Both the position numbers and the translations under genes were made by a program. The notes under the pieces were generated by a model. It was not told the DNA's origin, did no database searches, and worked only from the letters and a program-made list of their open reading frames with translations. From Laetmonice hystrix (taxonomy: Eukaryota): a stretch of DNA of 64,000 bases. Below, piece after piece: positions 13,667 through 39,843 of the stretch (its first letter is position 1; the number at the start of each line of letters is the position of its first letter). The stretch is taken from NCBI GenBank assembly GCA_965235115.1, contig OZ249436.1, forward strand, positions 30,444,001 to 30,508,000, given 5' to 3'.

Positions 13667-16600
13667 ATGGAATCTGAAGATGACCTCCTATACGATGAAG
13701 AATCGGGCCACGAAATGGACGACGATGACGATGACTTCGTCGATATGGATCCTGAACCAGGTTCCACTCAAGAGAAACATGACGTTGAAGAATTTCCGTA
13801 TGAGGTCCTCACGACCGAACAAATTGTCAAACACATGGTTGACTGCATCAAGGAAGTCAACGCAGTTGTTGAGGTAAATGATCCTAATACATTACAAAAA
13901 GAGAATTAATGGTTGAATAAGTTTAAATAGGTTGTCCAGGTATGATGTTTTAATCAAAAATGGCGACCCCCAATCGACCTTGCCCTCACTTCGAGTTCGT
14001 GCGGTCAATGTCCCACTCCCAGACAGTCCATTCCCAGTCCAATTTCTCATTTTTCTACCCCTCTCAATCTGATTAGCTCACGCTTTTGTTTTGTTGTACC
14101 TTTCACACAGCTAATTGATAAATCCAAACATCTGAGGCCACAACATTGTATTAATGAGTCGCTCCATTTTCAAAAGAAACCACTGCACTATTCCTTCACT
14201 CCCGGCCGTAACGTGTTAGTGACAACGTCAACGACAACGGTGACAGACTTGTCACTGTCACTAGTGTCAGTCTCACTTGACTTGTCTCCTGTCAGTCTCA
14301 CTCAGTCACTCAGTTCCGAACACAAAAATACAATATACACCAGTGCAATGCCAAGACAGCAGGCCTGATGTTAAGGGAAACTTGCGTAACCCATTTTTCG
14401 TTCGCCTGTTTTTTATTTTAGATAACCGACAGGCGAACGAAACGACCGTTTGCCCGTTAATCTCAGGCTTGCAAAATTTGCAAGTGAACGGATTTTCGTT
14501 CTCGGCCTTTCAATTTTAGGTGAACGACACGCGAACGAAACGATAGTTCGCATCTTAAAATCTGGCCTGCAAGACAGCTAATTTACCAGTTTTCTCATAC
14601 AAGGGACAGGCTAAAGTACGGGCTAGTCTAATCCAAGTTGCACAAAAGTTGCATAAATTTGTGGGTTTTTTTTTTATAAGATAGTAGTCAGGGATGTGCC
14701 CATGCCAGGCAGCCCGCCCAGAATCGTGCACTCAGATAGATCTCCATTGGTCTCAGAACTCTGGGGGCATGGTTTCCTATTGTTTAGATGCTGAATCTGA
14801 CTAGTCAGTCTGTGTGGGCTCACACCTCCGGTCGTCTGCTACCTGATGGGCGGTGGAGTTTTCTTTCAAACAAGAATAAAGGACAGTCTGGATAGGCAAA
14901 TTGTAGACCAAATATCGCAGGGGAGATATATAGTTATTACGTGTGACTGAACTGAGACCTGATATTTCGGATAGAACTTTAGAAGAACACACTGCTATGC
15001 AGCTAACCTCCCGGAGATCTGAGACCACAGGGATCTGAGACCGTGACACCGGCACCGATTTTAGCCACCCGGCACAAAAACTAAAAAGGTTCAAGTGCCG
15101 CCCAGCATGAATTTTTATTGTATCATCTTAACATATTATCTTTACATGTGCTTGTACAGGAATATCACAGTAATCACGCTATTGTCTTGTCAGTAATGAG
15201 GCGTCACGCTATTTATGGGTCACCATCAACTAAACTGGTTACCTGGGGAATGGAATGTTGCGTAACAACATGTGGTTAACCACCAGGGGTCAGTCGGGAG
15301 TTAGCCGGCAGTTAGTCTGGGGGGTTAGCCGGGGGGTCAGTCTGGGGTAAACCGGGGGTCAGTCTGGTTAGCCAGGGGTCAGTCTGAATCCATAACAATA
15401 CCAAGGCTCTAACCAAATGCAGGGCTGGAATTTCAAATTTTAGGCTACTTGCCCGTCGGGCAAGTAGCCTGAAAAAGTTACTTGCCCAGATCAGAAGTTA
15501 CTTGCCCAGATTTCAGAGAGAATTTAAGATAATAGGCATGGTCTATGAGTATTACGCTTTAATTAAACAGTCGTAATTTACCAGCCAGAGGTCAAGTTAT
15601 TTGCAATCACATACTCTGTCATACATAAAAACGTTCAATAAACTTGAGCATACCGTATATGTCCTATTTGCCGCGCACCTCCTATTTGCCGCGCACCCCA
15701 GCATTTTTTAAAACCCAATGTGTTTGTCAGGGGTGGAAATTTGGGAAAACTCATATTGGGGACTCATATTGGGGACCTATTTGGAAAGAAAATGCCCCCT
15801 TAACGTTAAAATAATTCATTTGCCGCGCACCCCCCTTCTGCACACGCGCATGCGCGGCAAATAGGACATATACGGTATATGGGCTTCATGGACCACTGGA
15901 TGCTTTTCAGATTTGCGCTTCAGTTAATCAGGACAGCAAATTGAATCACATGTCAAAGTCCCTCTCAAGGTTTTCCAAAAAAGTCGCTATTTGTCTCCAC
16001 CAGAGAAGAACAGGGGTTGTTTTCAGGACTTTGACGTGGGCCATAAGGTCTTGTGTCTCGCCTCCTGCGGCCATGCTGATTCCATGGCGTCCCTGTCATG
16101 TCTTTTTTCATCATTCAATCGGCACTTTGGGGGCGATGCTGGTTGGTGGGGTGTGGGGGGGAGGCCCGTGTTTCCAGTTGCGATGTATGTCGGCAGATTA
16201 CCTGGCTCAGAGATAAGTGTAGCTGGGCCACGCTGATGCTGCGACAGCCACCCAGGACACACACTGAACAAACGACAACACATGAACAAAAGGAGCACTC
16301 TGGCGGCACACAGGTGGCCAGTTGAAACACACGGGCCGGGATTAGCTGAGCCAGCCAAATGACCCCCGCTGTTGTTACTGCACTGGAGAAAGATTGAGCC
16401 GCCAAAAGGTCACCCCCTTTAAACAACAGTAACCAAAATAGTTACTCGGCCGGCGGACGAGATACTGGGCTAGACTTACTCGTCCGGACCGAAACTTACT
16501 CGTCTCGGGCGGCCGGACGAGTGGGAAATTCCAGCCCTGAAATGGCACCCACCCACACCCCTTGCCAACTGAAAACCTTGCGCCGTCGGTGCTAGCGCAA

Positions 16601-19600
16601 AACTACCAGTACCACCTGGCACTCAATTTTTTCTGGGCACGTCCCTGTCTAGTGCAGGCCTCGAATTACATGACGGCAATTGCCATTGTGCCCGTTCCAT
16701 TTGCCATGGTGCCCTCTTATTTTTGGCCTCGTCAACGGCAGTCCAGTGCCGTGATGCCCTTTTCCCTTGCTGTCGTGTACCCTCTGTGGACGCGGGCCAG
16801 ATGACATCCCACTGTCTAACAATCTTAATAACCCGACTTTCTAAAAGCTTAAAACCTTAACAAAACTTAGATATTCTATATTCAACATCGTTAAATTCCT
16901 CTAGCTATTCTTCAGGATCACTTTCCAAGACATTGACATTTGCATATATTTAGATCTAATTGTGAATACCTTGGTGCCCCTCCTTGGAGAAGTAAATTTG
17001 CCATGGTGCCCTTCCAAACTTGTTGAAAATGCTGTGGTGCCCTCCTTTTAACAAGGCCCTCGACAGCAATTTTTGCCGTGCCCCTTTGAACTTCTCATTC
17101 GCGGCCTGCTAGTGTATATCATGCCTATTCATCCGGCAAAAAAATCCTGACTGATTATGCACAGTAACCACAGGGTTACTGTGCATAAAAATCCTGACTG
17201 GCAAAAAAATCCTGACTGATTATGCACAGTAACCACAGGGTTGGACAAATTATTTTATGAGTCACTGGTCCAGGACCAGTAATATTTACTGGTCCTGCTC
17301 TTGGGTCCACTGGTCCAAAACTCCACAATTTCATGGAGTGTTTAATTTATGGAAATGTTAAGATTGCCATCATCATTGCCATTACAAGCCACAGACCTCC
17401 AGCATCCTTGGAGGATGGAGGTTTGTGACCTGCTACATGCCTGGCACCAGGTCCTGACAGATACCACCTGTCAATGACAGTACTTAGGTTTAACCAAGAC
17501 TGGGCAACAGTCCGTCAGACTACCAATGATATATTTTCACAAGTCTGAAGCAATAATAGGCAGGTCCCGGACCTCGGGCTAGTGGATTTGTCCAACCCTG
17601 AACCAGAGATGAGATTTTCCCACAGATGAGATCGGCAGAATTTCTTCTTTTTCTCGACCAAATGTATCATAGATCTCTGACTGATGTACAGTTCGGGTGT
17701 ACATGTATAAAGTTTTTCCTCTTTTTTTTTTTCATTATTGGCGTGTCACATCCCTGAGTAACATTCAATCAACTTCCACTTTCGGTGGGAGGTGTAAAGC
17801 AGGGCTTCCGCTAGGCAAAAAAATCCTTTAGCCACTGTGGCTAAGCCACTCTGGATTTCTTTAGCCACATGTGAGATGCTTTAGCCACTGTGGCGAACCA
17901 GATTCTAATTTTTCTAGCCACACTCTCTAAGTCTAACTAGCCAATTAGCCACAAAAGTAATTAGTGAACGCAATATGGCAAAACAGAGGCCAGTCAGTGA
18001 CTGCATGGGGGATTGTGGCTCCTGGGTCCGGTTTTTTGGTTTACTTTTCCACCGTGAGCAAGGGTGAGCTGAGCTGAGCAAGGGTGAACATGAGCTAATT
18101 CTCACCGTTTTCATGCTTTTTTGGTTGCTTTTTTTCCATGAAGCGTGCTCATGGCAAGCAAGCTCGCGGAAAAACACCCCAAAAAAACGAAAACGGTGAG
18201 CAAAACGGTGAGCATGAGCTTCTACTCACCCTTGCTCAGTCAGCTCACGCTTGCTCACGGTGGAAAAGTAAACAAAAAAACTGGGCCCAGAAGTTGCACC
18301 TGAGTTGGAGAGCGTCGGCTGCCAATCCATCAGCCTTTTCAGTTGCCTGTCCTGAGGAGACAGCTGGGGCCATAGTCTGAGAAGACCGACAGCCGGCGCT
18401 CTGCAGCCGACGGCGCTCTGCAACCGACGCATGCTCGCGCAAGGGGTCAGTCACTGCAGGTGGTTGATGATCATGACAGTTAGGAGTTCTCGGCTGTGGT
18501 CTCGGATTATTTTCACCGAAATCGGTTGTTATATTATCGCCACAGATGTCAAAGCTGTTTTTTTGCCTTTCGCCAGAGTGGCGAGGGTTTTGGTATGTAA
18601 CAAGCACCACAAGCAACTTTGATTCGCCATGGCGAACGTGGCGATCGGCTAGCGGAAGCCCTGGTAAAGACCCACCAATGAGGGCTAAGGAGAAGGCTCG
18701 GTATAGCATGAGTATGGTCAAATGACACAAGCACAGGAGAAGCCATTGCCGGCTGGTATAGTCATACCGTATCGCTGGTTCATATCGCCCAAGGCCAAGG
18801 GCAAGATTATTGCATGGTCGGGCTAGTCCAACACACCAAAGACAATAGCTGGATGGCTAGTGCTCTGACCCAACATAGACAACAAGTACACATTGTACAT
18901 GATTGTATACGAGGGGGATAGCTCTAGGGCATGTGGATGTCAGAGCTGGACAAGTGGAATTTTTGTAGTCCACTTGTCCTGTGGCAAGTGATCAAAAATA
19001 ACAATCATAGCTGATTTTCGTCACAAGGTGTATCAGACTGGGTCACGGTGTCATGCCTTGGCCACAACACTGCCCGGCCCCTCCTCAAACACCAGCCAGT
19101 CAAAACCCCCATGATTTCTCTTTTGGGCTAGCATGAGGTTGGATTGTTTTGAGCAAAGAGTCTATGGAAGCAAATAATTGTACCCGAGGCTGCTTATAAA
19201 AGTTATGTCATGCCTTCACGGAAGCAGTGTTTGGTCGATCAGGCATGAATTAGCGCCCAGCACCCGATAATTTCAACCCCTGGATACATGTGGGCGATAA
19301 TGAAGTGTCACTGCAACCTCGCGCATGTGCAAGAATTCGGCTGCTAATTCAGGGCGTGTTTGTTTCACGCACTGGTTCCGTGAACTTGACCGCGATCGCT
19401 GATCTGGCCGTTTGTTTTCGTCGGTTCACTGATCAGGATCCGGGACCCGCTGATCCTGCTGGCGAGGTGGGTCAGCCCGGGATCCAAAATGGCGGACGAT
19501 CAGTTCAAAAGGAAACTAATCGCGATCACTGACCTGCCCGTTTCTTTTCGCCGGTTCACTGAGAGTGAACCAGGTTGGGTGCAGTAGCGTTTGTTTGCGC

Positions 19601-22600
19601 GTGTAAATTAGGTCAGTGATCGCGATTCGGAACCTGCGTGTGAAACAAACACGCCCATAGTAATACAAGTCCTAATGGTCACATAGGCTTCCAACAATTG
19701 AGTCAACATCAGGGCAGATATTACCTGTCAGCTATGCCTTCCTTACCATACATCATTCCTTTTTATTCTTTTCAATACCAGATTCCAGCAACAACTACAA
19801 GAATATTGTTGAACCACTTCAAGTGGGACAAGGAGAAGCTTATGGAAATGTGAGTATTTTATAGTCAGATCTAGCAGAGAAATGATTTCTTGCAGTTCTT
19901 GCTATATTCAAGGTTCTTGCTGCCATTTGCCATTATTGTCAACCAAAAAGTTCGTTAAATCAGAATGAATTTGGCTGTTATATCCTGGTCATCTGGTGAC
20001 AAAACAATGGCATAAATTTAAAATGTATAATTTAGTGATGTCAGTGGTCAGTCCCTGGCTGTGACCACTTGGGATCAGTTACTATAGTCTATGATTTAGA
20101 AACCAATCCATTCCAAGCTGAAATGAATCGCAACTTCTCCAAAAACCAACTTGATCACGTGTCAATCTTCTTTTACTGCATACACAGTGAAAAGACACAG
20201 AGGCCCATTTACTAAGCCGGTGACGTCGCCAAATGAGACGTCGCCGCCCTATTATATAAGGTCAAATTTCGGCCATCCTGGCGATATCACCCATTGCTTT
20301 AATGTTGGCTGCACTGGGCGACACTTATGACAGGCGACATCGCCGGCTTAGTGAAACCTGCCCCTGATGTCACCAGCAAGATTTTAGGGTCACTTTGCAG
20401 TGTCAGATAGGAGAAAAGCCAATCTGTGCGAGCTCCATGAAGTGTGCCTTTATATAACAAATATTTGTGCCTTGGATTAGTTGGAAGGTTTGCAAAGAAA
20501 CAGTGTACTTTGGAGTTGATAACAAACGGCTTGGAAGTTATAGTGTATCTAAGTTTAACTTTAACCATTTCATATTTCCATATGTAGATACTATGATGGT
20601 GATCAAGACAAACTCTTCTCAGAAGCACATGTTATTAGCCCTTTCAAGAAAGCACTCACCAGAAAGGTTTGTACAGTAGAATCATTTACTTTTTCTGACA
20701 GTTTGCAAGTTTGGCAAGTTAGAAATTCTTGCCAGGGCTGTATATTGTAGCAGAGTATTTTTGCAGCTCTGGGGTAGTTTGAAGAAAGGACATGATGTGT
20801 AACTGCAGCCCCAAGATCTAGCCGAAAAGATGTTAAACACAGACTGGCAAGAAACGTGTCTTGTTTTTTTTGAAGATAGTAACTAAAAGTGGAAATCGCT
20901 CCGTGAATGCTTATATAATAATATCATTTAACACAGTAAAGGTAGATTTACAATATTCTTGTGAAAGTTTCTTACTGTCAAGGTATGTTTGACTTTCAGA
21001 GAAGTACACGTTTGGCTGCAGCATCTGGCTCAGCAGAAGTGTTTTGCGAGATCTGCTATATGCAACTTCCACAGTCGGTATGCACTCTCTCATTTATTCA
21101 AAAATGTTTGTCACACACATGTTTTAGATTCATAATTATGATTCACTTTAATTGTAAACCATTAAAATAACTCGCCTAGAGTTAGTGGTCCTTTTGGGAA
21201 CCCTGCAAATGTCTGTAGGCCGAGCTCTGCAGGAACGATATCAAACTCTGTGGCATCAAGCAGATTTGTTTTCAAATTGATTTAGGAAAAAATAAAGCAA
21301 AAGTTGTGGTAAACTCAAACACTTATAAAAATTGTCCTAGATGATGACGGGTCTGGAGTGCAACCATCGCTTCTGTACTCGATGCTGGACAGAGTACCTC
21401 ACAACTAAGATTATGGATGAGGGAATGGGGCAGGTGAGTAAATACTTGAAGTTTAAAAATAGTAATAGGCTTGGTTGGATGAACATGAAAAAAAAAATTA
21501 TTACCCAGGGTAGACGTTTTTCTGAGGCTCCAGCTGCATGAAGTGACCAAAATTGACTGGAGGGGGGACTTTTTTTCAAAATCTAATTTTACATGTACAC
21601 AAGGTCCACAGAATTGTTAAACCAATGGTCTGTTGATCCAGGTAAATGATTTATAAATAATATCAATTGGAATTTTTTTATATTACAGACAATATCCTGT
21701 GCTGCACATGGTTGTGATATTCTGGTAGATGATGCAACAGTTATGTAAGTAGAAACAGGTACTTCGATGAAGGCAAGATAAAAAATTCTCTGACTTTATA
21801 TTAAAATTAGTGTACTAATCTCAAGCCCTGAGTTCATGGTTCAGGAGAATTCTGTTGTGTGTGAACAACAGTTTTGTTGTTGAAAGGCACCAAATGGATA
21901 ACAAGTCTGTACACAAATTCTGTTATAGGTCTGATATATGCTTGGGGATTTTTGGAGTTAAGTTGAATGTAGTATTCAGCAAAAGGTAACTTACAGTGAT
22001 CATTTTCTCTGGGTTTGTTTCAGGAAATTAGTGACAGATCCTAGGGTGAAATTAAAGTATCAACATCTAATAACCAATAGTTTTGTAGAGGTAAGTAAAC
22101 TACAGCTGTTATCCCTAGTACTATTCTAAAGCTTACAAATTGAATGGAATAACATGTGCGATGAGTAAATATTGTGATTAGCTAAAACCTAAATATATAT
22201 GTGTCCCTGGAAGGCACCTCTTGTTTTCTCAAGTGGTGAATTTGACCAGTTTATCTAGTACATAAGACATTCTTGGATTTATTAAAGAAGATTTGAATTA
22301 TACTATGACTGTTTTTTTAATCTTTGCAGTGTAATCGTTTATTACGTTGGTGTCCAATGCCAGATTGTGGCCATGCCATCAAAGTAAACTACCATGATGC
22401 TAGGCCTGTTGCTTGTGCCTGTGGCCACATATTTTGGTAAGAAACCTTTCTGTTATTGTAAAACCTTAGTTTAATGTCTTTACTTTTTATGTGAATATTA
22501 AACTCTGATATCCTGTCCCGGGGGGAGGTTGAGGGGGGAGAGAGAAATAGCGGAGAGGGAGAAAGTGACAGAGCAGAGACAATTTCATCTCAATTTTGTT

Positions 22601-25600
22601 ATCCATTCCTTTTTTCCACTTTTGGTTACAGTTTTTCTTGTGGAGAAAACTGGCATGATCCAGTAAAGTGCAAGTGGCTCAAGAAATGGATCAAGAAATG
22701 TGATGATGACAGTGAAACCTCAAACTGGATCGCTGCCAATACAAAGGTAAAACAGTCTGTAATCTGGAGGAGTTCTCCAGAATGTGGGACTCGAGAAAGT
22801 CAGGACTGAGTGTCGTTCCTAGACAGGAATTCAAAATTCCTTACACAGACAACAACACCCCTCCCCCCCCCCCCCTAAAAAAACCCAACTTTCTGCCCAT
22901 GATGCAGGAATCCCGCACCTGATAGTACTGACTAGCTGTCAACCTATCTGATGACTAAGATATACCCGGTAATTAGGCACGAAAATGGGAAATTTATGTT
23001 ATGTTATGTATGGTGGAAAGCTAACCTCGAAAATCTATGCTCATTAATTTTGATTCCTGGATATATAAGTTTAACCTAAATTTAATACTACAGTCATTTT
23101 GCATAAAACTTGTGAAAGTTAAAAAGATCCTCGTTAGGTAATCTACAGGTATTACTATTAGTTACAACAGCTTTTTCGGTGTACAGTATACTAAAGTGTC
23201 CAGATGGATGGGGACTAAATCCTATCAAAAGGGACAGTCACTAGTTTTAATTTTGATTGCAAAATTATACAAGTGTTGCCAGTTAGACCTGTTAAATTAC
23301 TGAGGAAATATTGCCTCTACTGTACAAAGTTTGCAAGGGTTTTCTCTCCATGAATTACCTCATACAGGGATTTCCCCGTGTAATTTGGTCATACCAGATG
23401 ATACTGTTGCTTCTAAAAAATACAACAGAGAAATCCAGAAATCAATGTTGGAAGTTTTTCAGTTTTTCTCACGTAATAAATGTGATTCAGGAATGTCCGA
23501 AGTGTCAGGTGACGATTGAAAAAGATGGTGGCTGTAACCATATGGTCTGTAAGAGCCAAACGTGTAAGGCGGACTTCTGCTGGGTTTGCCTTGGGCCGTG
23601 GGAGCCCCATGGTACCTCATGGTAAGTGGCGTTGGTGTGAGCCTGGTGGGCAACCCAGTCAATTCCATGCAATCAGCCATCACATAAATGGTGTGAAACA
23701 CTGTGACCAACTAAATTAGGTCAGGTTTGAAGTGTGGTGGTTGATTGGAAAGTAGCAGCCAATTATATGCAATGCTTCCATCAAATTTGTGATTGAAATT
23801 GAATAGAGCGAAAAAACGACACCCAAGTTCTTTGAGAGTGGACACACATAGACCTGTATTATTTTAAGTGATGGTTTCTCAGGGGTATTAATATCAAGCA
23901 GTCACTCTTGCTAAGGTCATTGCTAGCAGTGAATGGTGGACCACAGATGGAAAACATTTTCTGTTGTTAGCCAGGACCAGGACTGCCTCTGCATTTAATG
24001 ATGCAAGTTTAAATAAAAAGCAGCTTAATAAGAATAGCCGCAAGTGGTCAGTTATTATTAAACTTGTTTAGACAAACCCAGAATATGGACAGAGGATTCT
24101 ACAATGCCAGATACGAAGGTGAGTCAATGTTTCAAAATATCGCAGCAGTCTGTACCAAAAGCAGTTCACGGGATGCTGACAGCAAGAGGTAAGGAAATGG
24201 CTACATTTAGAAATTGTTTTACCATTCTTTTAAGCTAAAACAATTCTTTGCAGCTAAAACAATAGAGCTAACTGCATGTCTCATTTTTGATGACAGTTTC
24301 ATTTCATGGTGCCAGAGCATGTGAATGATGGCATGCTGCATGTCATTGATATAAAACAGGTTTGATTTTAGCAGTGACCTTTAAAATTGATATGGGAGTA
24401 AGAGCAAAATAATGTTGACAAAACTGAAAATTTAGAAAGTAAGCATGTACTAGATTTGATCGTTTTAATCAAAGCCATTGGCATTGCACACTAGGATTTT
24501 TTTTTCAATGACAAGTGAAACGTTCATTTCGATAAAGTTACATGTTTGATTATGTTATTTCTTCTGTACAAAGTTATTAAGATGGGTGTTTCGTTTTCAC
24601 TAAATTTTAGTGTAGACTGTTTTAGGTGTATAGAGCAGCCACCATATATCAATGTCTACTGACTCACTATGCTGCCATCATCAGTATGGAATTTGAGCCT
24701 TATTTAATAGACTGATTTCTTCACTGATGTGAAGACCTTCTGGCGTTTTGAGTTGTAGTGCAGGTCAGCCACACACTGCAAGGTTGCTCAGGGCGCCAAA
24801 TTTCTGACCCATAGTCTACAGATATCCTGACATTAAAATAAAACCAAGCTGCAAGTTGATTCACTAATTAGTGCTTCGATACACATGTTAGAAGGGTACA
24901 TGGTTATACGTATACTTTTTGTTCTCTTAGTGATTTCACTCATCAAAATTATCTATTCATGGACAAATGGCTCTTTGTGATGAAAATAAATGATTTTAAT
25001 TACTGTTTTTTAATACCAGTTTTGTAACAAAGTTGTAAGTTTGGGTTTCGGTAGTGGAATGCATGCACCAAAACGCCTCCTGTTCTATAAACCCTGACGT
25101 TCTCCACTCCTTGTGACTTGACACAAAGTCACCACTTTGATCCTAGTTTTTGTTAACAGTGTTTCCATCCTACCAATTTTCACTGAATGCTAATAACCTG
25201 TGTACCCCAAGACATGGTGCGTACTTTGGGCTGGGATAGTTGATCTGGTGTGGCTGAGCTGACACGCAGTCTGGTGTGCGTGTGTTGACAGGAATGCCCA
25301 AAGTGCCGAGCGACCATTGAAAAAGATGGGGGGTGCAATCACATGGTGTGTAAGAAGTGCAGGTTTGACTTCTGCTGGGTGTGCCTCGGGCCATGGGAGC
25401 CCCATGGATCATCATGGTATGTATCACTATGACACTCTTGGCCGCAAGAACAAATTTTGCTGGCTGAAAACCTATTTATTGTGTTCTTCACATTGTTGCA
25501 AAGCTTTTTATCAGGTGCTTTTACTGACGTTTTTGTCCAAATTTATAAAGAGGCTTTGTTAACTTGAAAATGAACAAGGTGATAACGGCAGTCATTTAGT

Positions 25601-28283
25601 TAGCAATAGATTATTATTGGATACACTCAGAATTTGTGACCGCAGGGAAGTTTAAGAGAGATTTATTGGCTAAAGATGATGTGGCTTTTCATTTATTAAA
25701 CATGGAGCATTGCATATAGTGGTTTGCGGGTCCCCACTGTACGTTTTTGTGCATTTTTTGCTTTGTACGCTACTCCTCATTGTACTTTGTCCATACAATT
25801 TATATTTACCATATTTAGACTAAAGACTGAAATTCAGTGCTGTGTTAGGATTACCCAACTTTTCTTAAAAAGTATCTTTCATTAGCTGAAAGTTTGCATT
25901 CGTATGACTTAGGAATGATGTTGATTGCAAAACCACTTCGTCATTTTACACAAGTATATTTTTATGTTTAAAAAAAATATTGATACAATGATAGAGGTAA
26001 AAAAAACAGTTTTAACAACTGCATATCTTACTGTTAAAGGGTGTCATTCTTTCTCATAGGTATAACTGTAATAGATATGATGAAGATGACGCAAAGAAGG
26101 CACGGGATGCTCAAGAGGTAAGTTCGGTAAGCATATCGGCATTATCTTGAAGCATTCCTAGGTATTAAGGCAAAAAATATTCTCCAATTTATTGCACTGC
26201 CATGTACAATGCTGCTAAGTTGTTCAGTCAAAACAGTAATGGAATAGCAAAAAAAGTGAACCGTTAAAGTTAATGAACGTTGTCTTTCTGTATTGTTTCC
26301 ATTAACAATTATGAAATTTGGACCATGAGTATTCCTTTGGGGCAAGTATGATTCCAACTTCCCTGCAGAGAATCTTGGCTTTCAGTAGCATTGTGGCTCA
26401 CACGGCACTGCAATAGACTGGGGGACTGTAACTGACAGTTACTTAAAGGGACATTTTTAATGTTGGGTAACCGTAACGGCCTTCCCCTTATCCTTGGATG
26501 ATACCTTGTAGAGTTTATTTTGTGATGTAGTTATAACACATAGGCAGTCGCTTCCTTTTACATGTTCCAATCTTATTTTGTCAAGTTAATTGTTGTAGAG
26601 CCATGTAAGGTTGGATTAATTTCCCCACCAATATATTGGGAGAGAAGATCTTGTGGCCATAGGTTGTGCGTTTGTGCAAGTAAAGCTGCTTAGTTTATCA
26701 AAAGATTTTGTGTATTTAAAAAAAAATTCTTTAAAGTTTTGTTTCTTTTATTCTTTTCAGTAGTGTCCACCAATTAAAGTTGTGAATAGTGGTCCAGTAA
26801 AGATTTTAAAGATTTGTTTTAGCCATGATTCCTGGTTTCTTTGAGCAATTATTCCGTTAATTGGGTTGACGTTTGTTTCAGCGTTCTCGAGCAGCATTAC
26901 AACGTTACCTGTTCTACTGCAATCGCTACATGAACCACATGCAGAGTCTCAAGTTTGAACACAAGGTAAGGAACAACAAATAGCTGTGCAAATTATTATT
27001 ATTATTATTATATTATTATTATTTTCAGTAAAAAAATATTCTACAACACCCATTTCTACATAAACCTTTGGACCGTAAAGAAAGTAATAATTAATGCTGT
27101 TTGCACTTTAGCAAGATCTGTATTGATCTGTATTTTTTTCAGTTATATGCCAGTGTCAAGCTAAAAATGGAGGAGATGCAGCAACACAACATGTCGTGGA
27201 TCGAGGTTCAGTTTCTGAAAAAGGCGGTTGATGTCCTCTGCCAGTGTCGCCAGACTCTGATGTACACCTATGTCTTTGCCTTTTATCTTAAAAAGAATAA
27301 TCAGTCCATCATCTTTGAGGTACGTAAAGCTGTGATAATGAACCAATGTTTTGTATGAAAGAATTGCTCAGAATGGAAGTAAAGCCTCCAGCATCTTTAA
27401 GTTCAGAGATATGTGCATCTATAATTCATGCAAAACCTTTAGTCTTGGAACGTAATATGTACGTATATATTTGAACCTGATGTATGGTAAATAAAAAATA
27501 GTGCGGTCGAATTCTCTTTACAGGAAAATCAGAAAGATGTTGAAAATGCCACTGAGCAGTTGTCCGAGTATCTAGAGCGTGATATCACCTCTGACATGCT
27601 AGTTGACATCAAGCAGAAGGTTCAGGACAAGTACAGGTAAGGCACACACAGTTCAGGTATTTGGTCTCGCTGTACTACAAAGGACAGTTTGCCTCTGTCA
27701 GTTGTAGTACTAGTATGGTGCCACAGGGAGGAAAACTAAAAAAACTAACTTGTTTGTCATGATAAATTGTGCTATTTTTTCAAACAGTTATTGTGCTTTG
27801 TAGAATACTTGAAAGATAACTTTAGGCCCAATCCTTTTTCATGAAATAATGTTCTACAGTAAGCACTTCGAAGGTTGCACCACTGTTGCTCGAGTCACTG
27901 TCCTTTAATAGCGAAGTAAGCTTTGGTAGATCAACGAAGTGGAATTGGAAAACATTCACACTACTTTTGAATTAAAGATATGTTAACTAACTTGATTACG
28001 TTTACTTTTGCATGCAGTTTCCTTTAAATATTTATGTTAGTCAAGGGTGAACTGTTCCGTTCAAAAAGTGGAGGTAACTTTTAAACGTTTGTTAACACCT
28101 TCCGATGCTGCCAAGGAGACGAATTGTTGATGAAGCTTTGTTCCGATGCTGCCAAGGAGACGAATTGTTAACGAAGCTTTGTTCACGTGTTACAGATACT
28201 GTGAGAGCAGACGTAAGGTCCTACTTGATCATGTCCATGAAGGTTATGACAAGGAGCTGTGGGACTACCAGGACCTGCTGTAG
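13667..28283 (+). CDS. ARIH1: Ariadne-1 RBR E3 ubiquitin ligase (acidic N-terminus, UBA-like, RING1, IBR, RING2, Ariadne domain), about 506 or 504 aa depending on RING2 exon
   Basis: Exons, all GT-AG and phase-consistent: 13667-13873, 19782-19849, 20588-20666, 21000-21077, 21341-21433, 21689-21744, 22024-22090, 22330-22436, 22632-22746, [23491-23621 or 25292-25416], 26060-26117, 26882-26965, 27143-27319, 27524-27636, 28196-28283. Diagnostic peptides [82 protein letters not shown]. Candidate AATAAA at 30467-30472. Confidence 0.96.
14360..14569. mobile_element. Non-autonomous hAT-type element with 8-bp TSD
   Basis: Ends caggcctgatgttaag / cttaaaatctggcctg; caagacag duplicated at 14352-14359 and 14570-14577. 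Confidence 0.85.
15420..16539. mobile_element. Non-autonomous CAGGG-ended TIR element with 5-bp TSD, nested
   Basis: TIR cagggctggaatttc / gaaattccagccctg; aaatg on both flanks; subterminal tacttgccc/tactcgtcc repeats. Confidence 0.85.
15653..15875. mobile_element. Tc1/mariner-like MITE with TA TSD, nested in 15420-16539
   Basis: Perfect TIR ccgtatatgtcctatttgccgcgca / tgcgcggcaaataggacatatacgg flanked by TA. Confidence 0.85.
16655..17108. mobile_element. Non-autonomous CAGG-ended TIR element with 6-bp TSD
   Basis: Ends caggcctcgaat / attcgcggcctg; ctagtg at 16649-16654 and 17109-17114; internal gtgccc repeats. Confidence 0.8.
17236..17600. mobile_element. Non-autonomous CAGGG-ended TIR element with 5-bp TSD
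   Basis: TIR cagggttggacaaat / atttgtccaaccctg; aacca on both flanks. Confidence 0.85.
17800..18663. mobile_element. Non-autonomous CAGGG-ended TIR element with 6-bp TSD, containing an internal foldback MITE (18024-18288)
   Basis: TIR cagggcttccgctag / ctagcggaagccctg; gtaaag on both flanks; internal long inverted repeat tttacttttccaccgtgagcaag / cttgctcacggtggaaaagtaaa. Confidence 0.85.
19352..19656. mobile_element. MITE
   Basis: Perfect 17-bp TIR gggcgtgtttgtttcac / gtgaaacaaacacgccc; CpG-rich interior with internal repeats. Confidence 0.75.
23491..23621 (+). CDS. ARIH1: ARIH1 RING2 exon, variant A ([44 protein letters not shown])
   Basis: ttcag|GAA ... TG|gtaagt; 131 nt, phase 0 to phase 2. 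Confidence 0.92.
25292..25416 (+). CDS. ARIH1: ARIH1 RING2 exon, variant B ([42 protein letters not shown])
   Basis: gacag|GAA ... TG|gtatgt; 125 nt, phase 0 to phase 2; all Zn ligands and the catalytic Cys retained. Confidence 0.9.
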
Positions 28284-31200
28284 AGCCACAGCTACACAAC
28301 TTAAGCGACCAACAAGACTTGAATGTGATCAGGCACTTCATGTGACTAACAACAACATTGTACAGACAAATCAACACTTGCTGCAACATACCAAACTTTG
28401 TTATAAATTCATGAGATTAACTGATTCCAAGGGCTGCAGCATTGCAAGATCAGTGACATGAAGAAAAGCTGTGCATAATCAGTAATTAAGAATTAATTAA
28501 GAGGGTATTTAAATGAAAACGATAGAAAATATAAATGAAGCCATGGAGTGTGTTGTGGTGCTGTGAGAAAGGACAAAATTTTTACTCTCAGGGTGATTAG
28601 GTGAGAGTGAACTGTTAAGTTAAAAAAAAACAAAAGGTAATGCAGTACATGAACAGATAGAGTCGCCGCTGTCTGGCATGCAGTTAACAAGGCATCCTTT
28701 GCCAGAGATCTTACGAAACGAAAATACATGCTATTTGTGATGTGCATCCTAAACTGTTGTCCTCGACTCTGATCCTGTTTCATGAAGACATGCTGTAGTC
28801 AATAGGAAGATACAAAAACTGGCCGGCAATTTCTATCAGATATTTACACCCAACACATGTTTAGCATTGAAAATGTTAAACATTTTTCATTTGATCTACA
28901 AGATTTTGTGTAAATCAAAGAGAAATCATCAAATAATAGCTCGATTAATTCACTGGAATTGAAATGGGAGGAAAGGGGCGGCGGTGGTAATGACACAAAG
29001 TGCAGTTGTTGTATTTATCTGATCGTAACCCTCTTCAAGATGTTGCGTTAGAGCCTAATGATCACATGGCAAGGTCTGCAGGATGACATTGTGAGCCAAG
29101 TGTGGTATTTTACAAAGATCAACGTGTCTACGGTCAGAAGTTAGGTCCCGAGTCTGTTGACGACGAACCCTATTTATTTACTATGGAAAAAAATATAGCT
29201 CGGATTTGAAGAAAATATATTCTTACATTTTGAGCAACCAAATATCGGATATACCCGTTGTACTGCTCCAATAATGTGAAAGCACTCAGTGTTTATTTCC
29301 GTCAAGCATGTCACTCAGCTCTTGAGCATATGAAAGCAGGTATTCATTTTTCATTCTCAACAACTGAACCTATTTAGGGGTCCCGCACTGTCTGAATCGT
29401 TTGGTGTGGAAGGTAAAGGCTGCAACCAATCGATGCTTTGTGCCTTGGTGATGAAATTGAACCGGGCGTCCGCTTATATTGGTATTTGATTTGACCAAAA
29501 AAAAGTTTTTCTATTTTATTGTAATTATTAAATCCACAAGTACTGCATATAATCAGTGGTTGTCATATAATTATGTTGATGGACTGTTGTCAAGTGATAC
29601 TACAGCCTCATGCCATGATAGCAGTTTACTGCCGGACTGCCCATTTATGCGAGTTTGTATTGGCCGTCATGTTGGTACTAATGAAGGATGGTCACGTTGT
29701 AATTAAAATTGAATGAAAGCAAGCGCTGTTGTAAATAGCACTGTTTGTATGAAAATACCGGTAACCATTATTAATGTCATGAAAATGAGGAGGTGTAACG
29801 TGAAATAGTTGGGAGCTATCACCATACCACAATCTTGAGTTGAAACCCTTGGTATTGATGCCCACCCAGTCAGTAGAATCTCCAATACCAAGCATTTAGT
29901 TCCATTTTGACGTGCCTCTTGTTTATGTTGCTCCGGGTACAGACTGCCCTCGCCGTGCAGTTTCGTCCACCTTTAAACACAACTCCTTTTTCTGCATGTG
30001 ACGTGTTGTTTCGTGCTCGCGATGGTGAGAGATCACGAGGAATCTTATGTCAGTCACCAATCTCCGCTAGTCTCCCATTTACCCCTAATTTGTTATGGAA
30101 AAAATGTTTTCACACCAAAAACGGCCTGTTTGTATTCACTGCTCACACTTATTGAAAATAAGCCTTTTTTAAGTAATTATGGAAATGGGAATTTGTAAAC
30201 AAGTATGAAAATGATTTTAAAAAGGTTGCTTTTTTAAAATGTTACTTCCTAAACTATCCAGAACAAGGTATATCTTCTTTATCATGCGCCATTAGAAGTA
30301 TGTTGCGGATACTTAATATATATCTCAAGGTAAATTATTGGGTAGACTAATCTATTTCTGATTAGTACACTTCTTTTTGGAGGTTATCTTTTTTTGTTAT
30401 ATTTTTTCTTCCTCGTGTATCTAAGCAAGGGGACGCTTTGTTTCTTGTTTCAGTTTAGATAATAACAATAAATGTGTATGAATTTCAGTACTTCAGAGTA
30501 TACACCAAAGTAGTCCATGCTTGTGGCTCATAAAGGATTCAGACAAACGGTAATACGCTGTTATAAGGATTTAGTGCAGATGGTACATGTATGTGAATAA
30601 TTCCTCCTCAGAATCCATGTTTATAAACGTGTTTACGTTGTCTGAATGACCGCGAAGGATGAGAGAGTTCATCCGAATGTCATTACGTAGAACCAGAACC
30701 AAAGGTTTAATTATTCCAGACAATAATTTCATGAGATGAAGCATTTTCGAAACTGTATGCAACAATTGACCGGCAATTACTTTGACAGTAGTAGGAGCAG
30801 CCTCGCCACAACCATAGCACCAGTTGTAACCTATTTATTAACTGTTACCGGCGTTTGGTAGTAACACCAGGTAGCAGGCCCCCCTCATGTCCATCCCCTA
30901 CCTCTGTCCTGTCGCGGTACGCGGCCGCATGCCACGGTCACACGCCTGCTGCCGTGTTACAAGCTGGTCAAACTGTGTACTATTTCCTTCCGCATTCTGG
31001 CCGCTCAGCAGCCAGCGTGGGCCTCGAGTGTCTGTCAGAACCACACGGATGTAGATAACCATTGGATTACTTAAAATAAACTATTAGAAAATACAATTTA
31101 CGTCTGGGTTTTTTGGTTCTGTTATCTAGGCACACTCAGCCACTAGTCTATGTCTTGCAGTTCCTTCCGAAGTTGTCAGCATGGGCGGCACCTAAACCAT

Positions 31201-32391: not shown

Positions 32392-34348
32392 CGCGTTATG
32401 AGCCTTGCCCACGCATGCAGAGACAACAGGATAACGCGTTATGAGCCTTGCCCACGCATGCAGAGACAACAGGATAACGCGTTATGAGCCTTGCCCACGC
32501 ATGCAGAGACAACAGGATAACGCGTTATGAGCCTTGCCCACGCATGCAGAGACAACAGGACAACGCGTTATGAGCCTTGCCCACGCAGAGACAACAGGAC
32601 AACGCGTTATGAGCCTTGCCCACGCAGAGACAACAGGACAACGCGTTATGAGCCTTGCCCACGCAGAGACAACAGGACAACGCGTTATGAGCCTTGCCCA
32701 CGCAGAGACAACAGGACAACGCGTTATGAGCCTTGCCCACGCAGAGACAACAGGACAACGCGTTATGAGCCTTGCCCACGCATGCAGAGACAACAGGATA
32801 ACGCGTTATGAGCCTTGCCCACGCATGCAGAGACAACAGGGCAACGCGTTATGAGCCTTGCCCACGCAGAGACAACAGGACAACGCGTTATGAGCCTTGC
32901 CCACGCAGAGACAACAGGACAACGCGTTATGAGCCTTGCCCACGCAGAGACAACAGGACAACGCGTTATGAGCCTTGCCCACGCAGAGACAACAGGACAA
33001 CGCGTTATGAGCCTTGCCCACGCAGAGACAACAGGACAACGCGTTATGAGCCTTGCCCACGCAGAGACAACAGGACAACGCGTTATGAGCCTTGCCCACG
33101 CAGGGACAACAGGATAACGCGTTATGAGCCTTGCCCACGCAGAGACAACAGGACAACGCGTTATGAGCCTTGCCCACGCAGAGACAACAGGACAACGCGT
33201 TATGAGCCTTGCCCACGCAGAGACAACAGGACAACGCGTTATGAGCCTTGCCCACGCAGAGACAACAGGACAACGCGTTATGAGCCTTGCCCACGCAGAG
33301 ACAACAGGACAACGCGTTATGAGCCTTGCCCACGCAGAGACAACAGGACAACGCGTTATGAGCCTTGCCCACGCATGCAGAGACAACAGGATAACGCGTT
33401 ATGAGCCTTGCCCACGCAGAGACAACAGGATAACGCGTTATGAGCCTTGCCCACGCATGCAGAGACAACAGGATAACGCGTTATGAGCCTTGCCCACGCA
33501 TACAGAGACAACAGGATAACGCGTTATGAGCCTTGCCCACGCAGAGACAACAGGACAACGCGTTATGAGCCTTGCCCACGCAGAGACAACAGGACAACGC
33601 GTTATGAGCCTTGCCCACGCATGCAGAGACAACAGGGTAACGCGTTATGAGCCTTGCCCACGCATGCAGAGACAACAGGATAACGCGTTATGAGCCTTGC
33701 CCACGCATGCAGAGACAACAGGATAACGCGTTATGAGCCTTGCCCACGCATGCAGAGACAACAGGATAACGCGTTATGAGCCTTGCCCACGCATGCAGAG
33801 ACAACAGGATAACGCGTTATGAGCCTTGCCCACGCATGCAGAGACAACAGGATAACGCGTTATGAGCCTTGCCCACGCATGCAGAGACAACAGGATAACG
33901 CGTTATGAGCCTTGCCCACGCATGCAGAGACAACAGGATAACGCGTTATGAGCCTTGCCCACGCATGCAGAGACAACAGGATAACGCGTTATGAGCCTTG
34001 CCCACGCATGCAGAGACAACAGGATAACGCGTTATGAGCCTTGCCCACGCATGCAGAGACAACAGGATAACGCGTTATGAGCCTTGCCCACGCAGATACA
34101 ACAGGACAACGCGTTATGAGCCTTGCCCACGCAGAGACAACAGGGCAACGCGTTATGAGCCTTGCCCACGCAGAGACAACAGGATAACGCGTTATGAGCC
34201 TTGCCCACGCAGAGACAACAGGATAACGCGTTATGAGCCTTGCCCACGCAGAGACAACAGGATAACGCGTTATGAGCCTTGCCCACGCAGAGACAACAGG
34301 ATAACGCGTTATGAGCCTTGCCCACGCAGAGCTAGACAACAGGATAAC
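32392..34348. repeat. Minisatellite with 39/43-bp units (cgcgttatgagccttgcccacgc[atgc]agagacaacaggayaa), roughly 48 copies
   Basis: Directly visible tandem array; the two unit lengths differ by a 4-bp atgc insertion. Confidence 0.98.
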
Positions 34349-36379: not shown

Positions 36380-39300
36380 ACTCGGTAACACCTACTGTGA
36401 AGGCAGCGGCTGGGAGCGTCATACTAATTATAATGGTACCGTAACTCGGTAATTACTGTGAAGGCAGCGGCTGGGAGCGTCATACTAATTATAATGGTAC
36501 CGTAACTCGGTAACACCTACTGTGAAGGCAGCGGCTGGGAGCGTCATACTAATTATAATAATACCGTAACTCGGTAACACCTACTGTGAAGGCAGCGGCT
36601 GGGAGCGTCATACTAATTATAATGGTACCGTAACTCGGTAACACCTACTGTGAAGGCAGCGGCTGGGAGCGTCATACTAATTATAATGGTACCGTAACTC
36701 AGTAGTTACTGTGAAGGCAGCGGCTGGGAGCAACATACTAATTAATGGTAACTCGGTAGTTACTGTGAAGAGAGCGACTGGGAGTATCATGAATGCAATG
36801 GTAACTCGGTTAACTGTTATGTTGATGGGAACATACGGGAGCATCATACCGCAATGGTAACTCGGTATAACTGTTATCTTGATGGGAGCGGACGGAAGCA
36901 TCATACCAATGATAACTCGGTAACTTATAGGCCCTACCGTATAGGCCTAGATAACGACTGGGAGCATCATGTCAATGGTAACTCGGTAACTTATACCGTA
37001 ACGACTGGGAGCATCATACCAATGGTAACTCGGTAACTTATACCGTATAGATAACGACTGGGAGCATCATGCCAATGGTAACTCGGTAACTTATACCGTA
37101 ACGACTGGGATCATCATGCCAATGGTAACTCGGTAACTTATACCGTATAGATAACGACTGGGATCATCATGCCAATGGTAACTCGGTAACTTATACCGTA
37201 TAGATAACGACTGGGATCATCATGCCAATGGTAACTCGGTAACTTATACCGTATAGATAACGACTGGGAGCATCATGCCAATGGTAACTCGGTAACTTAT
37301 ACCGTAACGACTGGGAGCATCATGCCAATGGTAACTCGGTAACTTATACCGTATAGATAACGACTGGGAGCATCATGCCAATGATAACTCGGTAACTTAT
37401 ACCGTAACGACTGGGAGCATCATGCCAATGGTAACTCGGTAACTTATATACCGTATAGATAACGACTGGGAGCATCATACCAATGGTAACTCGGTAACTT
37501 ATACCGTATAGATAACGACTGGGAGCATCATGCCAATGGTAACTCGGTAACTTATACCGTATAGATAACGACTGAGAGCATCATGCCAATGGTAACTCGG
37601 TAACTTATACCGTATATATAACGACTGGGAGCATCATGCCAATGGTAACTCGGTAACTTATACCGTATAGATAACGACTGAGAGCATCATGCCAATAGTA
37701 ACTCGGTAACTTATACCGTAACGACTGGGAGCATCATGCCAATGGTAACTCGGTAACTTATACCGTATATATAACGACTGGGAGCATCATGCCAATGGTA
37801 ACTCGGTAACTTATACCGTATAGATAACGTCTGGGATCATCATGCCAATGGTAACTCGGTAACTTATACCGTATAGATAACGACTGGGATCATCATGCCA
37901 ATGGTAACTCGGTAACTTATACCGTAACGACTGGGAGCATCATGCCAATGGTAACTCGGTAACTTATACCGTATAGATAACGACTGGGAGCATCATGCCA
38001 ATGGTAACTCGGTAACTTATACCGTATAGATAACGACTGGGAGCATCATGCCAATGGTAACTCGGTAACTTATACCGTAACGACTGGGATCATCATGCCA
38101 TTGGTAACTCGGTAACTTATATACCGTATAGATAACGACTGGGAGCATCATGCCAATGGTAACTCGGTAACTTATACCGTATAGATAACGACTGGGAGCA
38201 TCATACCAATGGTAACTCGGTAACTTATACCGTATAGATAACAACTGGGAGCATCATACCAATGGTAACTCGGTAACTTATACCGTATAGATAACGAATG
38301 GGATCATCATGCCAATGGTAACTCGGTAACTTATACCGTATAGATAACGACTGGGAGCATCATACCAATGGTAACTCGGTAACTTATACCGTATAGATAA
38401 CGACTGGGAGCATCATGCCAATGGTAACTCGGTAACTTATACCGTATAGATAACGACTGGGATCATCATGCCAATGGTAACTCGGTAACTTATACCGTAT
38501 AGATAACAACTGGGAGCATCATACCAATGGTAACTCGGTAACTTATACCGTAACGACTGGGAGCATCATGCCAATGGTAACTCGGTAACTTATACCGTAA
38601 CGACTGGGAGCATCATACCAATGGTAACTCGGTAACTTATACCGTATATATAACGACTGGGAGCATCATGCCAATTGTAACTCGGTAACTTATACCGTAA
38701 CGACTGGGAGCATCGTGCCAATGGTAACTCGGTAACTTATACCGTATAGATAACGACTGGGAGCATCATGCCAATGGTAACTCGGTAACTTATACCGTAT
38801 AGATAACAACTGGGAGCATCATACCAATGGTAACTCGGTAACTTATACCGTATAGATAACGACTGGGAGCATCATGCCAATGGTAACTCGGTAACTTATA
38901 CCGTAACGACTGGGAGCATCATGCCAATGGTAACTCGGTAACTTATACCGTAACGACTGGGAGCATCATGCCAATGGTAACTCGGTAACTTATACCGTAT
39001 AGATAACGACTGAGAGCATCATGCCAATGGTAACTCGGTAACTTATACCGTATAGATAACGACTGGGAGCATCATGCCAATGGTAACTCGGTAACTTATA
39101 CCGTAACGACTGGGAGCATCATGCCAATGGTAACTCGGTAACTTATACCGTAACGACTGGGAGCATCATACCAATGGTAACTCGGTAACTTATACCGTAT
39201 AGATAACGACTGAGAGCATCATGCCAATGGTAACTCGGTAACTTATACTGTATAGATAACGACTGGGAGCATCATGCCAATGGTAACTCGGTAACTTATA

Positions 39301-39843
39301 CCGTAACGACTGGGAGCATCATACCAATGGTAACTCGGTAACTTATACCGTATAGATAACGACTGGGAGCATCATGCCAATGGTAACTCGGTAACTTATA
39401 CCGTATAGATAACGACTGGGAGTATCATGCCAATGGTAACTCGGTAACTTATACCGTAACGACTGGGAGCATCATGCCAATGGTAACTCGGTAACTTATA
39501 CCGTATAGATAACGACTGGGATCATCATACCAATGGTAACTCGGTAACTTATACCGTAACGACTGGGAGCATCGTGCCAATGGTAACTCGGTAACTTATA
39601 CCGTAACGACTGGGAGCATCGTGCCAATGGTAACTCGGTAACTTATACCGTAACGACTGGGAGCATCATGCCAATGGTAACTCGGTAACTTATACCGTAT
39701 AGATAACGACTGGGAGCATCATGCCAATGGTAACTCGGTAACTTATACCGTATAGATAACGACTGGGAGCATCATGCCAATGGTAACTCGGTAACTTATA
39801 CCGTATAGATAACGACTGGGAGCATACCAATGATAACTCGGTA
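36380..39843. repeat. Compound minisatellite: 64-bp units grading into 53/47-bp units (ggtaactcggtaacttataccgta[tagata]acgactgggagcatcatgccaat)
   Basis: Directly visible; periods measured as 64 bp (36380-36700) and 53/47 bp (37021 onward). Confidence 0.98.

What the first reader, a model, noticed from the sequence alone, without database searches (positions are those of the whole stretch)
23491..25416. ARIH1 has two intact copies of its catalytic RING2 exon: a candidate mutually exclusive splicing switch at the E3 active site
Seen: two exons (131 and 125 nt) lie 1.67 kb apart, both phase 0 to 2 with canonical splice sites. Both keep every Zn ligand and GGCNHM. Many nucleotide differences are synonymous and the flanking introns are unrelated, which suggests an old duplication under purifying selection. 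Amino-acid differences cluster at QV vs RA and at [10 protein letters not shown] vs CKKCRFDF (C-x4-C vs C-x2-C). Including both exons or neither shifts the frame. Established: in Ariadne RBR ligases the Cys in GGCNH forms the ubiquitin thioester and is autoinhibited by the Ariadne domain; from memory, ARIH1 has the longer loop and ARIH2 the short C-x2-C loop. Inference: one gene makes two ligases with interchangeable catalytic modules that may differ in autoinhibition, CRL partner or acceptor specificity. I know of no description of this, but could not search the literature.
Basis: partly seen in the sequence, partly recalled or inferred. Interest (0 to 1): 0.9.

Follow-up and report, generated by a model that had tools for sequence, protein, structure and literature searches.

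The report
Annelid ARIH1 twin catalytic exons
This worm's ARIH1 ubiquitin ligase gene carries two old copies of the exon holding its catalytic cysteine and splices in one or the other, keeping both the ancestral version and a shorter version that the other annelid genes examined use alone, although the differences lie on a surface loop rather than on the catalytic residues.

Summary
Exon A (23491-23621, C-x4-C loop) and exon B (25292-25416, C-x2-C) are intact tandem copies of the RING2 exon of a single-copy annelid ARIH1 gene. Spliced contigs of one run show all four mutually exclusive junctions (depth 47.9 for A, 24.3 for B) and list no A+B or skipping joint; three DNA runs of that sample carry both exons in tandem. 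A is the ancestral bilaterian form. B is the form in 6 of 7 named annelids, and 24 of 24 distinct genomic loci that span both flanking exons hold B alone. So the duplication predates the split from the B-bearing annelids, and this lineage kept a pair that others resolved to B. The 'active-site switch' reading is weakened: the differing residues map to human ARIH1 positions scored as wild type in published alanine scans (one, T/S at 384, lies in a mild triple mutant), and the autoinhibition and cullin contacts lie in shared exons. Best reading: two active ligases differing in a surface zinc knuckle. No description was found in six paper searches. The pair was not found in a second species; tissue regulation and biochemistry are untested.

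The parts
23491..23621 (+). Alternative RING2/Rcat exon A (ancestral long loop, C-x4-C), holds the catalytic Cys equivalent to human C357
   Evidence: junctions 22746>23491 and 23621>26060 at depth 47.9 in run X4
25292..25416 (+). Alternative RING2/Rcat exon B (annelid-derived short loop, C-x2-C)
   Evidence: junctions 22746>25292 and 25416>26060 at depth 24.3 in run X4
22632..22746 (+). Shared upstream exon (end of IBR and linker, the Ub-guided helix of human ARIH1)
   Evidence: joint 22436>22632 in X4
26060..26117 (+). Shared downstream exon (last Zn ligand and the N390/R391/Y392 equivalents that contact the Ariadne domain)
   Evidence: positions
23622..25291 (+). 1670-nt intron between the twins; too long for steric exclusion; ordinary GT-AG ends; three TGCATG words (about one expected)
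13667..28283 (+). Whole ARIH1 coding span: 16 exons, 15 per isoform, 506 aa (A) or 504 aa (B); single copy in the genome

Best explanation
The RING2 exon of ARIH1 was duplicated in tandem early in annelid history. One copy (A) kept the bilaterian loop; the other (B) lost two residues and gained basic and aromatic ones. In this species the upstream donor 22746 is joined to either acceptor, and each exon's donor to 26060, so one gene yields two full-length RBR ligases (shown, one sample). Messages with both or neither exon carry an early stop and are most likely removed by nonsense-mediated decay; exon choice is probably set by competition of two weak acceptors (inferred). Both isoforms are most likely active and autoinhibited in the same way, since catalytic, ubiquitin-gripping, latch and cullin-binding residues are identical or shared. 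What is exchanged is a surface patch around the first zinc site of RING2, more basic in B, which at most tunes rate, stability or a partner outside the core cullin reaction (inferred). Other annelid lineages lost A, which completed an exon replacement; this lineage kept both under purifying selection.
For: Four junctions, GT..AG, only in the spliced run; A plus B depth 72.2 against 68.5 for the shared upstream contig; no A>B or skip joint listed. Premature stops for both and neither. Near-saturated synonymous sites with 35 of 41 residues identical. Short loop in 6 of 7 named annelids, long loop in Owenia and 11 of 11 named non-annelid bilaterians. With the exon cut out, the window protein groups with short-loop rows (sister P0005, support 98; 12-row clade with Lamellibrachia, Capitella, Paralvinella, support 91). 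24 of 24 distinct intron-bearing loci with both flanking exons have B only. A shares three ancestral characters with outgroups (V349, four-residue loop with Q, KAD), so it was not re-derived from B. Alanine-scan data. Both acceptors have 10 pyrimidines in 20 positions against 16 and 12 for the flanking exons.
Against: RNA evidence is contigs of one run of one sample whose kind is not on record; contigs drop rare forms, so absence of A+B or skip joints is not proof, and depth is a poor measure of level. No second species with both exons was found. The loci come from a scan for the short exon and are mostly one type of host; the annelid backbone of the tree is unresolved. The published mutants are alanine swaps in the human protein in a cullin assay, not the two-residue deletion. 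Decay and splice-site competition were not tested.
Confidence: 0.7

Rival explanations
1. Regulated functional switch: the two RING2 modules differ in acceptor or partner specificity and are chosen by tissue or stage, as with COQ-2 exons 6a/6e.
For: Both exons kept intact since an early annelid split; each loop type is conserved across its own range; changes cluster in two segments and alter loop length and charge; small Ser-acceptor defects for H348A/V349A/T350A (1.55-fold) and K368A/E370A (1.34-fold) in my recomputation of published values.
Against: The same positions are wild type in the cullin assay table; loop mutants R363A and N364A/Q365A/N366A are 1.0-1.2-fold; autoinhibition and cullin residues are in shared exons; other annelids do with B alone and other bilaterians with A alone.
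Confidence: 0.2
2. Pure redundancy held by split expression: the proteins are equivalent, and each exon is kept only because some cells splice mainly that one.
For: Either form alone suffices in other animals; differing positions tolerate alanine. This overlaps with the best explanation at its weak end.
Against: An ancient pair with stable, clustered differences is more often tuned than neutral (general claim of PMC9741552, passages); B fixed three linked changes that are conserved across annelids.
Confidence: 0.25
3. One exon is a decaying relic or the pair is an assembly artefact (alleles or a retrocopy).
For: Partial, decayed copies of this exon's start occur in other annelid loci (L008, L026), so the exon does duplicate without function.
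Against: Both exons are full length, spliced at both ends, near-saturated at silent sites yet 35 of 41 residues identical; DNA contigs span both; no other ARIH1 copy among the genome matches.
Confidence: 0.03

Closest known systems
Human ARIH1/HHARI (Ariadne RBR E3 ligase; PDB 4KBL, 7B5L)
   Same: Same domain order and near-identical RING2; exon A aligns without gaps to residues 343-384; vertebrate-type fragments among the hits begin and end at the same exon borders.
   Different: ARIH is not mentioned in the main text of the human tandem-exon paper PMC9741552 (its supplements not searched); B is two residues shorter.
Tandem exon duplication-derived mutually exclusive exons (PMC9741552, PMC8373072)
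   Same: Homologous tandem exons, same phases, one included at a time, old, core function kept in both.
   Different: New gene and enzyme class in my searches; exons of unequal length (131/125); the pair is a retained intermediate, since related lineages kept only the derived copy.
coq-2 exons 6a/6e of helminths, molluscs and annelids (PMC7434440)
   Same: Mutually exclusive homologous exons inside an enzyme's catalytic domain, present in annelids (passages).
   Different: There the exon remodels the enzyme core and the switch is shown by deletion; here the changes map to positions neutral in human scans and no switch is shown.
ARIH2/TRIAD1
   Same: Short C-x2-C loop.
   Different: B scores higher against ARIH1 (70.5 bits) than ARIH2 (57.9). 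The genome has its own ARIH2-like gene on contig C13 whose RING2 is cut by different introns, so B is neither copied from it nor a replacement; the short loop is convergent.

Membership tests
ARIH1 (Ariadne RBR ligase) | UBA-like, RING1, IBR, RING2 and Ariadne domains in one chain | tested here: met
   Gene model; Pfam on the 91% identical P0005 gives UBA_ARI1, IBR, IBR_1, Ariadne
ARIH1 (Ariadne RBR ligase) | Catalytic Cys and His (C357, H359) with RING2 zinc ligands in both exons | tested here: met
ARIH1 (Ariadne RBR ligase) | Closer to ARIH1 than to ARIH2 | tested here: met
   separate ARIH2-like gene
ARIH1 (Ariadne RBR ligase) | Thioester formation, autoinhibition, activation by neddylated cullin | not testable with these tools
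   Needs biochemistry
Tandem-duplicated mutually exclusive exons | Homologous adjacent exons with the same phases and intact splice sites | tested here: met
Tandem-duplicated mutually exclusive exons | Each exon spliced to both shared flanks | tested here: met
   4 of 4 junctions in run X4, one sample
Tandem-duplicated mutually exclusive exons | No stable message with both or neither | tested here: inconclusive
   No such joint listed, but contigs drop rare forms; both forms carry early stops
Tandem-duplicated mutually exclusive exons | Pair conserved in other species | tested here: not met
   0 of 24 distinct spanning genomic loci hold A; no close relative's genome was available
Tandem-duplicated mutually exclusive exons | Tissue- or stage-specific choice | not testable with these tools
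   One spliced run only
Docker/selector RNA-structure MXE clusters (Dscam, Mhc type) | Competing long-range intronic pairings | tested here: inconclusive
   Best helix matched by 24 of 60 shuffles; no conservation data

The most novel reading that the evidence does not exclude
An E3 ligase whose catalytic domain is swapped by regulated splicing: since early annelid history this lineage has kept an ancestral and an ARIH2-like short, basic zinc knuckle because they serve different partners or acceptors (for example cullin-independent substrates or non-lysine acceptors) in different tissues. It would be a natural two-allele experiment on a RING2 surface to which human mutagenesis has assigned no role.
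Probability: 0.25. Interest if true: 0.8.

Novelty: new member of a known kind. Interest (0 to 1): 0.55.

Why it matters
ARIH1 primes substrates of many cullin ligases and is essential in human cells (PMC7904520, passages), and its RING2 barely varies across bilaterians. A spliced choice between two RING2 exons was not found in print. The locus also explains how annelids came by a different catalytic-domain loop: duplication, divergence of the spare copy under alternative splicing, then loss of the old copy. A species that still holds both makes that route, and the role of the loop, directly testable by an exon swap.

Tried and rejected
No RNA holder listed: none of the 4 runs found is on record as RNA; X4 was judged by its laid joints. 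Long-range RNA pairing: a 23746-23778 / 25704-25736 duplex that would loop out B, and a 24756-24779 / 25243-25266 duplex over B's likely branch point, looked strong in a region chosen after seeing them (0 of 40 shuffles), but in a whole-region scan 24 of 60 shuffles reached the best helix, 8 of 60 the second, and 13 of 17 other window tiles had stronger helices; rejected as evidence. Nei-Gojobori dS saturates, so no dN/dS is given. AlphaFold of exon A alone had mean pLDDT 56.6 and was not used. Cluster look-ups of 20 proteins gave no isoform pair differing in RING2; the one long-loop member of a short-loop cluster (P0128) falls with bivalves. Mytilus X1/X2 differ in the last exon, not RING2. 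B as an ARIH2 conversion or stand-in: rejected. Steric or minor-spliceosome exclusion: rejected by intron length and ordinary GT-AG ends. L025 (another RBR) and L091 (intronless, altered motif) were dropped from the 98 loci; L094 (intronless) was dropped from the genomic count; P0259 and P0263 were dropped from the tree. Three look-ups in earlier scan findings returned nothing. The numbering of RING2 zinc ligands was not found in PMC3940038 and is recalled.

Full report
Observation. Both match Pfam IBR_1 and the RING2 of human ARIH1, residues 343-384. A model of 15 coding exons per isoform from 13667 to 28283, all with GT-AG ends, gives open proteins of 506 aa (A) and 504 aa (B). A search of the 627-Mb genome finds this exon at high identity only twice and no second ARIH1 gene among its matches (candidates scored are a lower bound). 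35 of 41 aligned residues are identical; 15 of 32 identical degenerate codons differ silently, against 18.0 expected at saturation.

Splicing. Four runs of one sample hold the stretch; none is on record as RNA. Laid on 21300-30300, run X4 shows 12 joints, all GT..AG at modelled borders, and no depth in most intron bins, while X1-X3 cover all 30 bins and show none of these joints. I therefore read X4 as RNA. It has 22746>23491 and 23621>26060 at depth 47.9, and 22746>25292 and 25416>26060 at depth 24.3; their sum, 72.2, is close to the 68.5 of the shared upstream contig. No A>B joint and no skipping joint is listed. These are contigs: they show presence, not absence or level. Single DNA contigs of X1, X2 and X3 span both exons, which excludes tandem assembly of alleles. 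Including both exons stops the frame 322 nt before the last junction, skipping both 426 nt before it; by established rules both are decay targets, which is inference here. The intron between the twins is 1670 nt, and both acceptors are pyrimidine-poor (10 of 20, against 16 and 12). A docker/selector structure did not survive a fair test.

Origin. Searching with B ranks annelid proteins first among the full-length hits. Among named proteins the short loop is in 6 of 7 annelids (Lamellibrachia, Ridgeia, Paralvinella, Capitella, Dimorphilus, Helobdella); Owenia and 11 of 11 named non-annelid bilaterians have the long loop; a sponge protein has a short loop with other residues. In a 93-row tree built with the exon cut out, the window protein is sister to short-loop P0005 (support 98) within a 12-row group whose other 11 rows are short-loop (support 91); the backbone is unresolved and the method was the quick one. 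A metagenome scan for the short exon gave 98 loci; 96 carry a recognisable ARIH1 exon, in 64 distinct DNA sequences; 25 distinct sequences (32 loci) have both flanking exons, one of them intronless, and none of the other 24 (31 loci) holds a second whole exon by pattern, tblastn or DNA alignment. In L017 the flanking introns are about 115 and 163 nt, too short to hide one. Most of these loci carry residues like those of the rows that group with Helobdella, so the sample is narrow. A agrees with the outgroups in three independent characters (V at 349, four-residue loop with Q, KAD), so it is a retained ancestral copy. Because B is shared with distant annelids, the duplication is older than their split from this lineage (several hundred million years by recalled dates). 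The genome has its own ARIH2-like gene on C13 with other intron positions, so B's short loop is convergent. I found no second species with both exons; named annelids are known here from one annotated protein each, and their genomes were not available.

Function. The differences map to human positions 348-349, 363-369 and 384. In the mutant table of PMC7904520 (supplementary file 1, part 2 read) H348A/V349A/T350A, R363A, N364A/Q365A/N366A and K368A/E370A are all 'WT activity'; the first is at the periphery of the ubiquitin interface, the rest outside the E3-E3 interface; G383D/S384D/A385D is mild, and T/S is conservative. The severe positions inside this exon (E343, I351, E352, C357, M360, W373, P378/W379, W386) are identical in A and B; the hyperactive latch positions (N390, R391, Y392, Ariadne domain) and cullin contacts are in shared exons. 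Recomputing product fractions from PMC10657180 (supplementary file 2, part 1 of 3; row meaning inferred by me) gives fold defects of 1.0-1.2 on Lys and 1.0-1.55 on Ser for these four mutants, against 4.7 and 6.2 for I351A/E352A. Both variable segments flank Cys ligands that, from recall, form the first RING2 zinc site, and B makes that patch shorter and more basic. Hence: two active, equally autoinhibited ligases with different surface knuckles (0.7 for the whole account); a true specificity switch is possible but has no direct support (0.2-0.25). Alanine swaps do not test a two-residue deletion, and cullin-independent roles were not assayed in those tables.

Literature. Searches for ARIH1 with 'mutually exclusive exons', ARIH1 with alternative splicing, isoform and annelid, and E3 ligase with mutually exclusive exons, catalytic and tandem exon duplication gave 0 papers; some searches listed only general RBR, MXE or plant papers (listings and abstract starts seen; 20 of 50 and 10 of 37 shown). 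Passages only were seen of PMC5548887, PMC7904520, PMC10657180, 10.1101/2022.10.11.511834, PMC9741552, PMC7434440 and PMC3940038. The library lacks most subscription papers, and supplementary MXE lists and annelid gene annotations that I did not see could already contain this pair.

Verdict. A real, expressed, old mutually exclusive pair covering the catalytic cysteine of ARIH1: a new member of a known kind, with an unusual evolutionary standing as a retained intermediate of an exon replacement, and an unproven functional switch. Interest 0.55.

Noticed in passing
P0135-P0143 (Mytilus ARIH1): Mytilus isoforms X1/X2 differ only in the last 20 residues, and one model (P0138) holds two near-copies of that segment in tandem: a separate duplicated terminal exon in mussel ARIH1. 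The window has no second last exon.
   Followed up: partly
L008 (also L050, L055) and L026, about 100-130 nt upstream of the RING2 exon: Partial decayed copies (about 60 and 38 nt) of the start of the locus's own short exon.
   Followed up: partly
L001-L098: At least three residue types of the short exon (GSW, TAW with V or I, TPW) occur among these loci, which suggests several ARIH1 paralogues in those hosts.
   Followed up: no
L091, L094: Intronless ARIH1 stretches with the short loop (transcripts or retrocopies); L094 matches P0006 at 213 of 213 residues; L091 has D in place of the second G before the catalytic Cys.
   Followed up: partly
P0013: Labelled by its source as Siedleckia nematoides but groups with annelid ARIH1; probably host contamination, as this is a parasite of polychaetes (recalled).
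   Followed up: no
window 28100-28184: 41-nt tandem repeat just before the acceptor of the last ARIH1 exon; a 38-nt deletion allele at 27964-28003 in the DNA runs.
   Followed up: no
window 32392-34331, 36380-39843, 2178-2619: Minisatellite arrays of period 39, 53-64 and 57 nt.
   Followed up: no
window 45490-45918 (+); 48238-48879 and 58326-59411 (-): An ionotropic glutamate receptor-like exon and two similar C2H2 zinc-finger open frames.
   Followed up: no
window 28283-30300: Long 3' untranslated region covered continuously in run X4, depth rising towards 30300.
   Followed up: no
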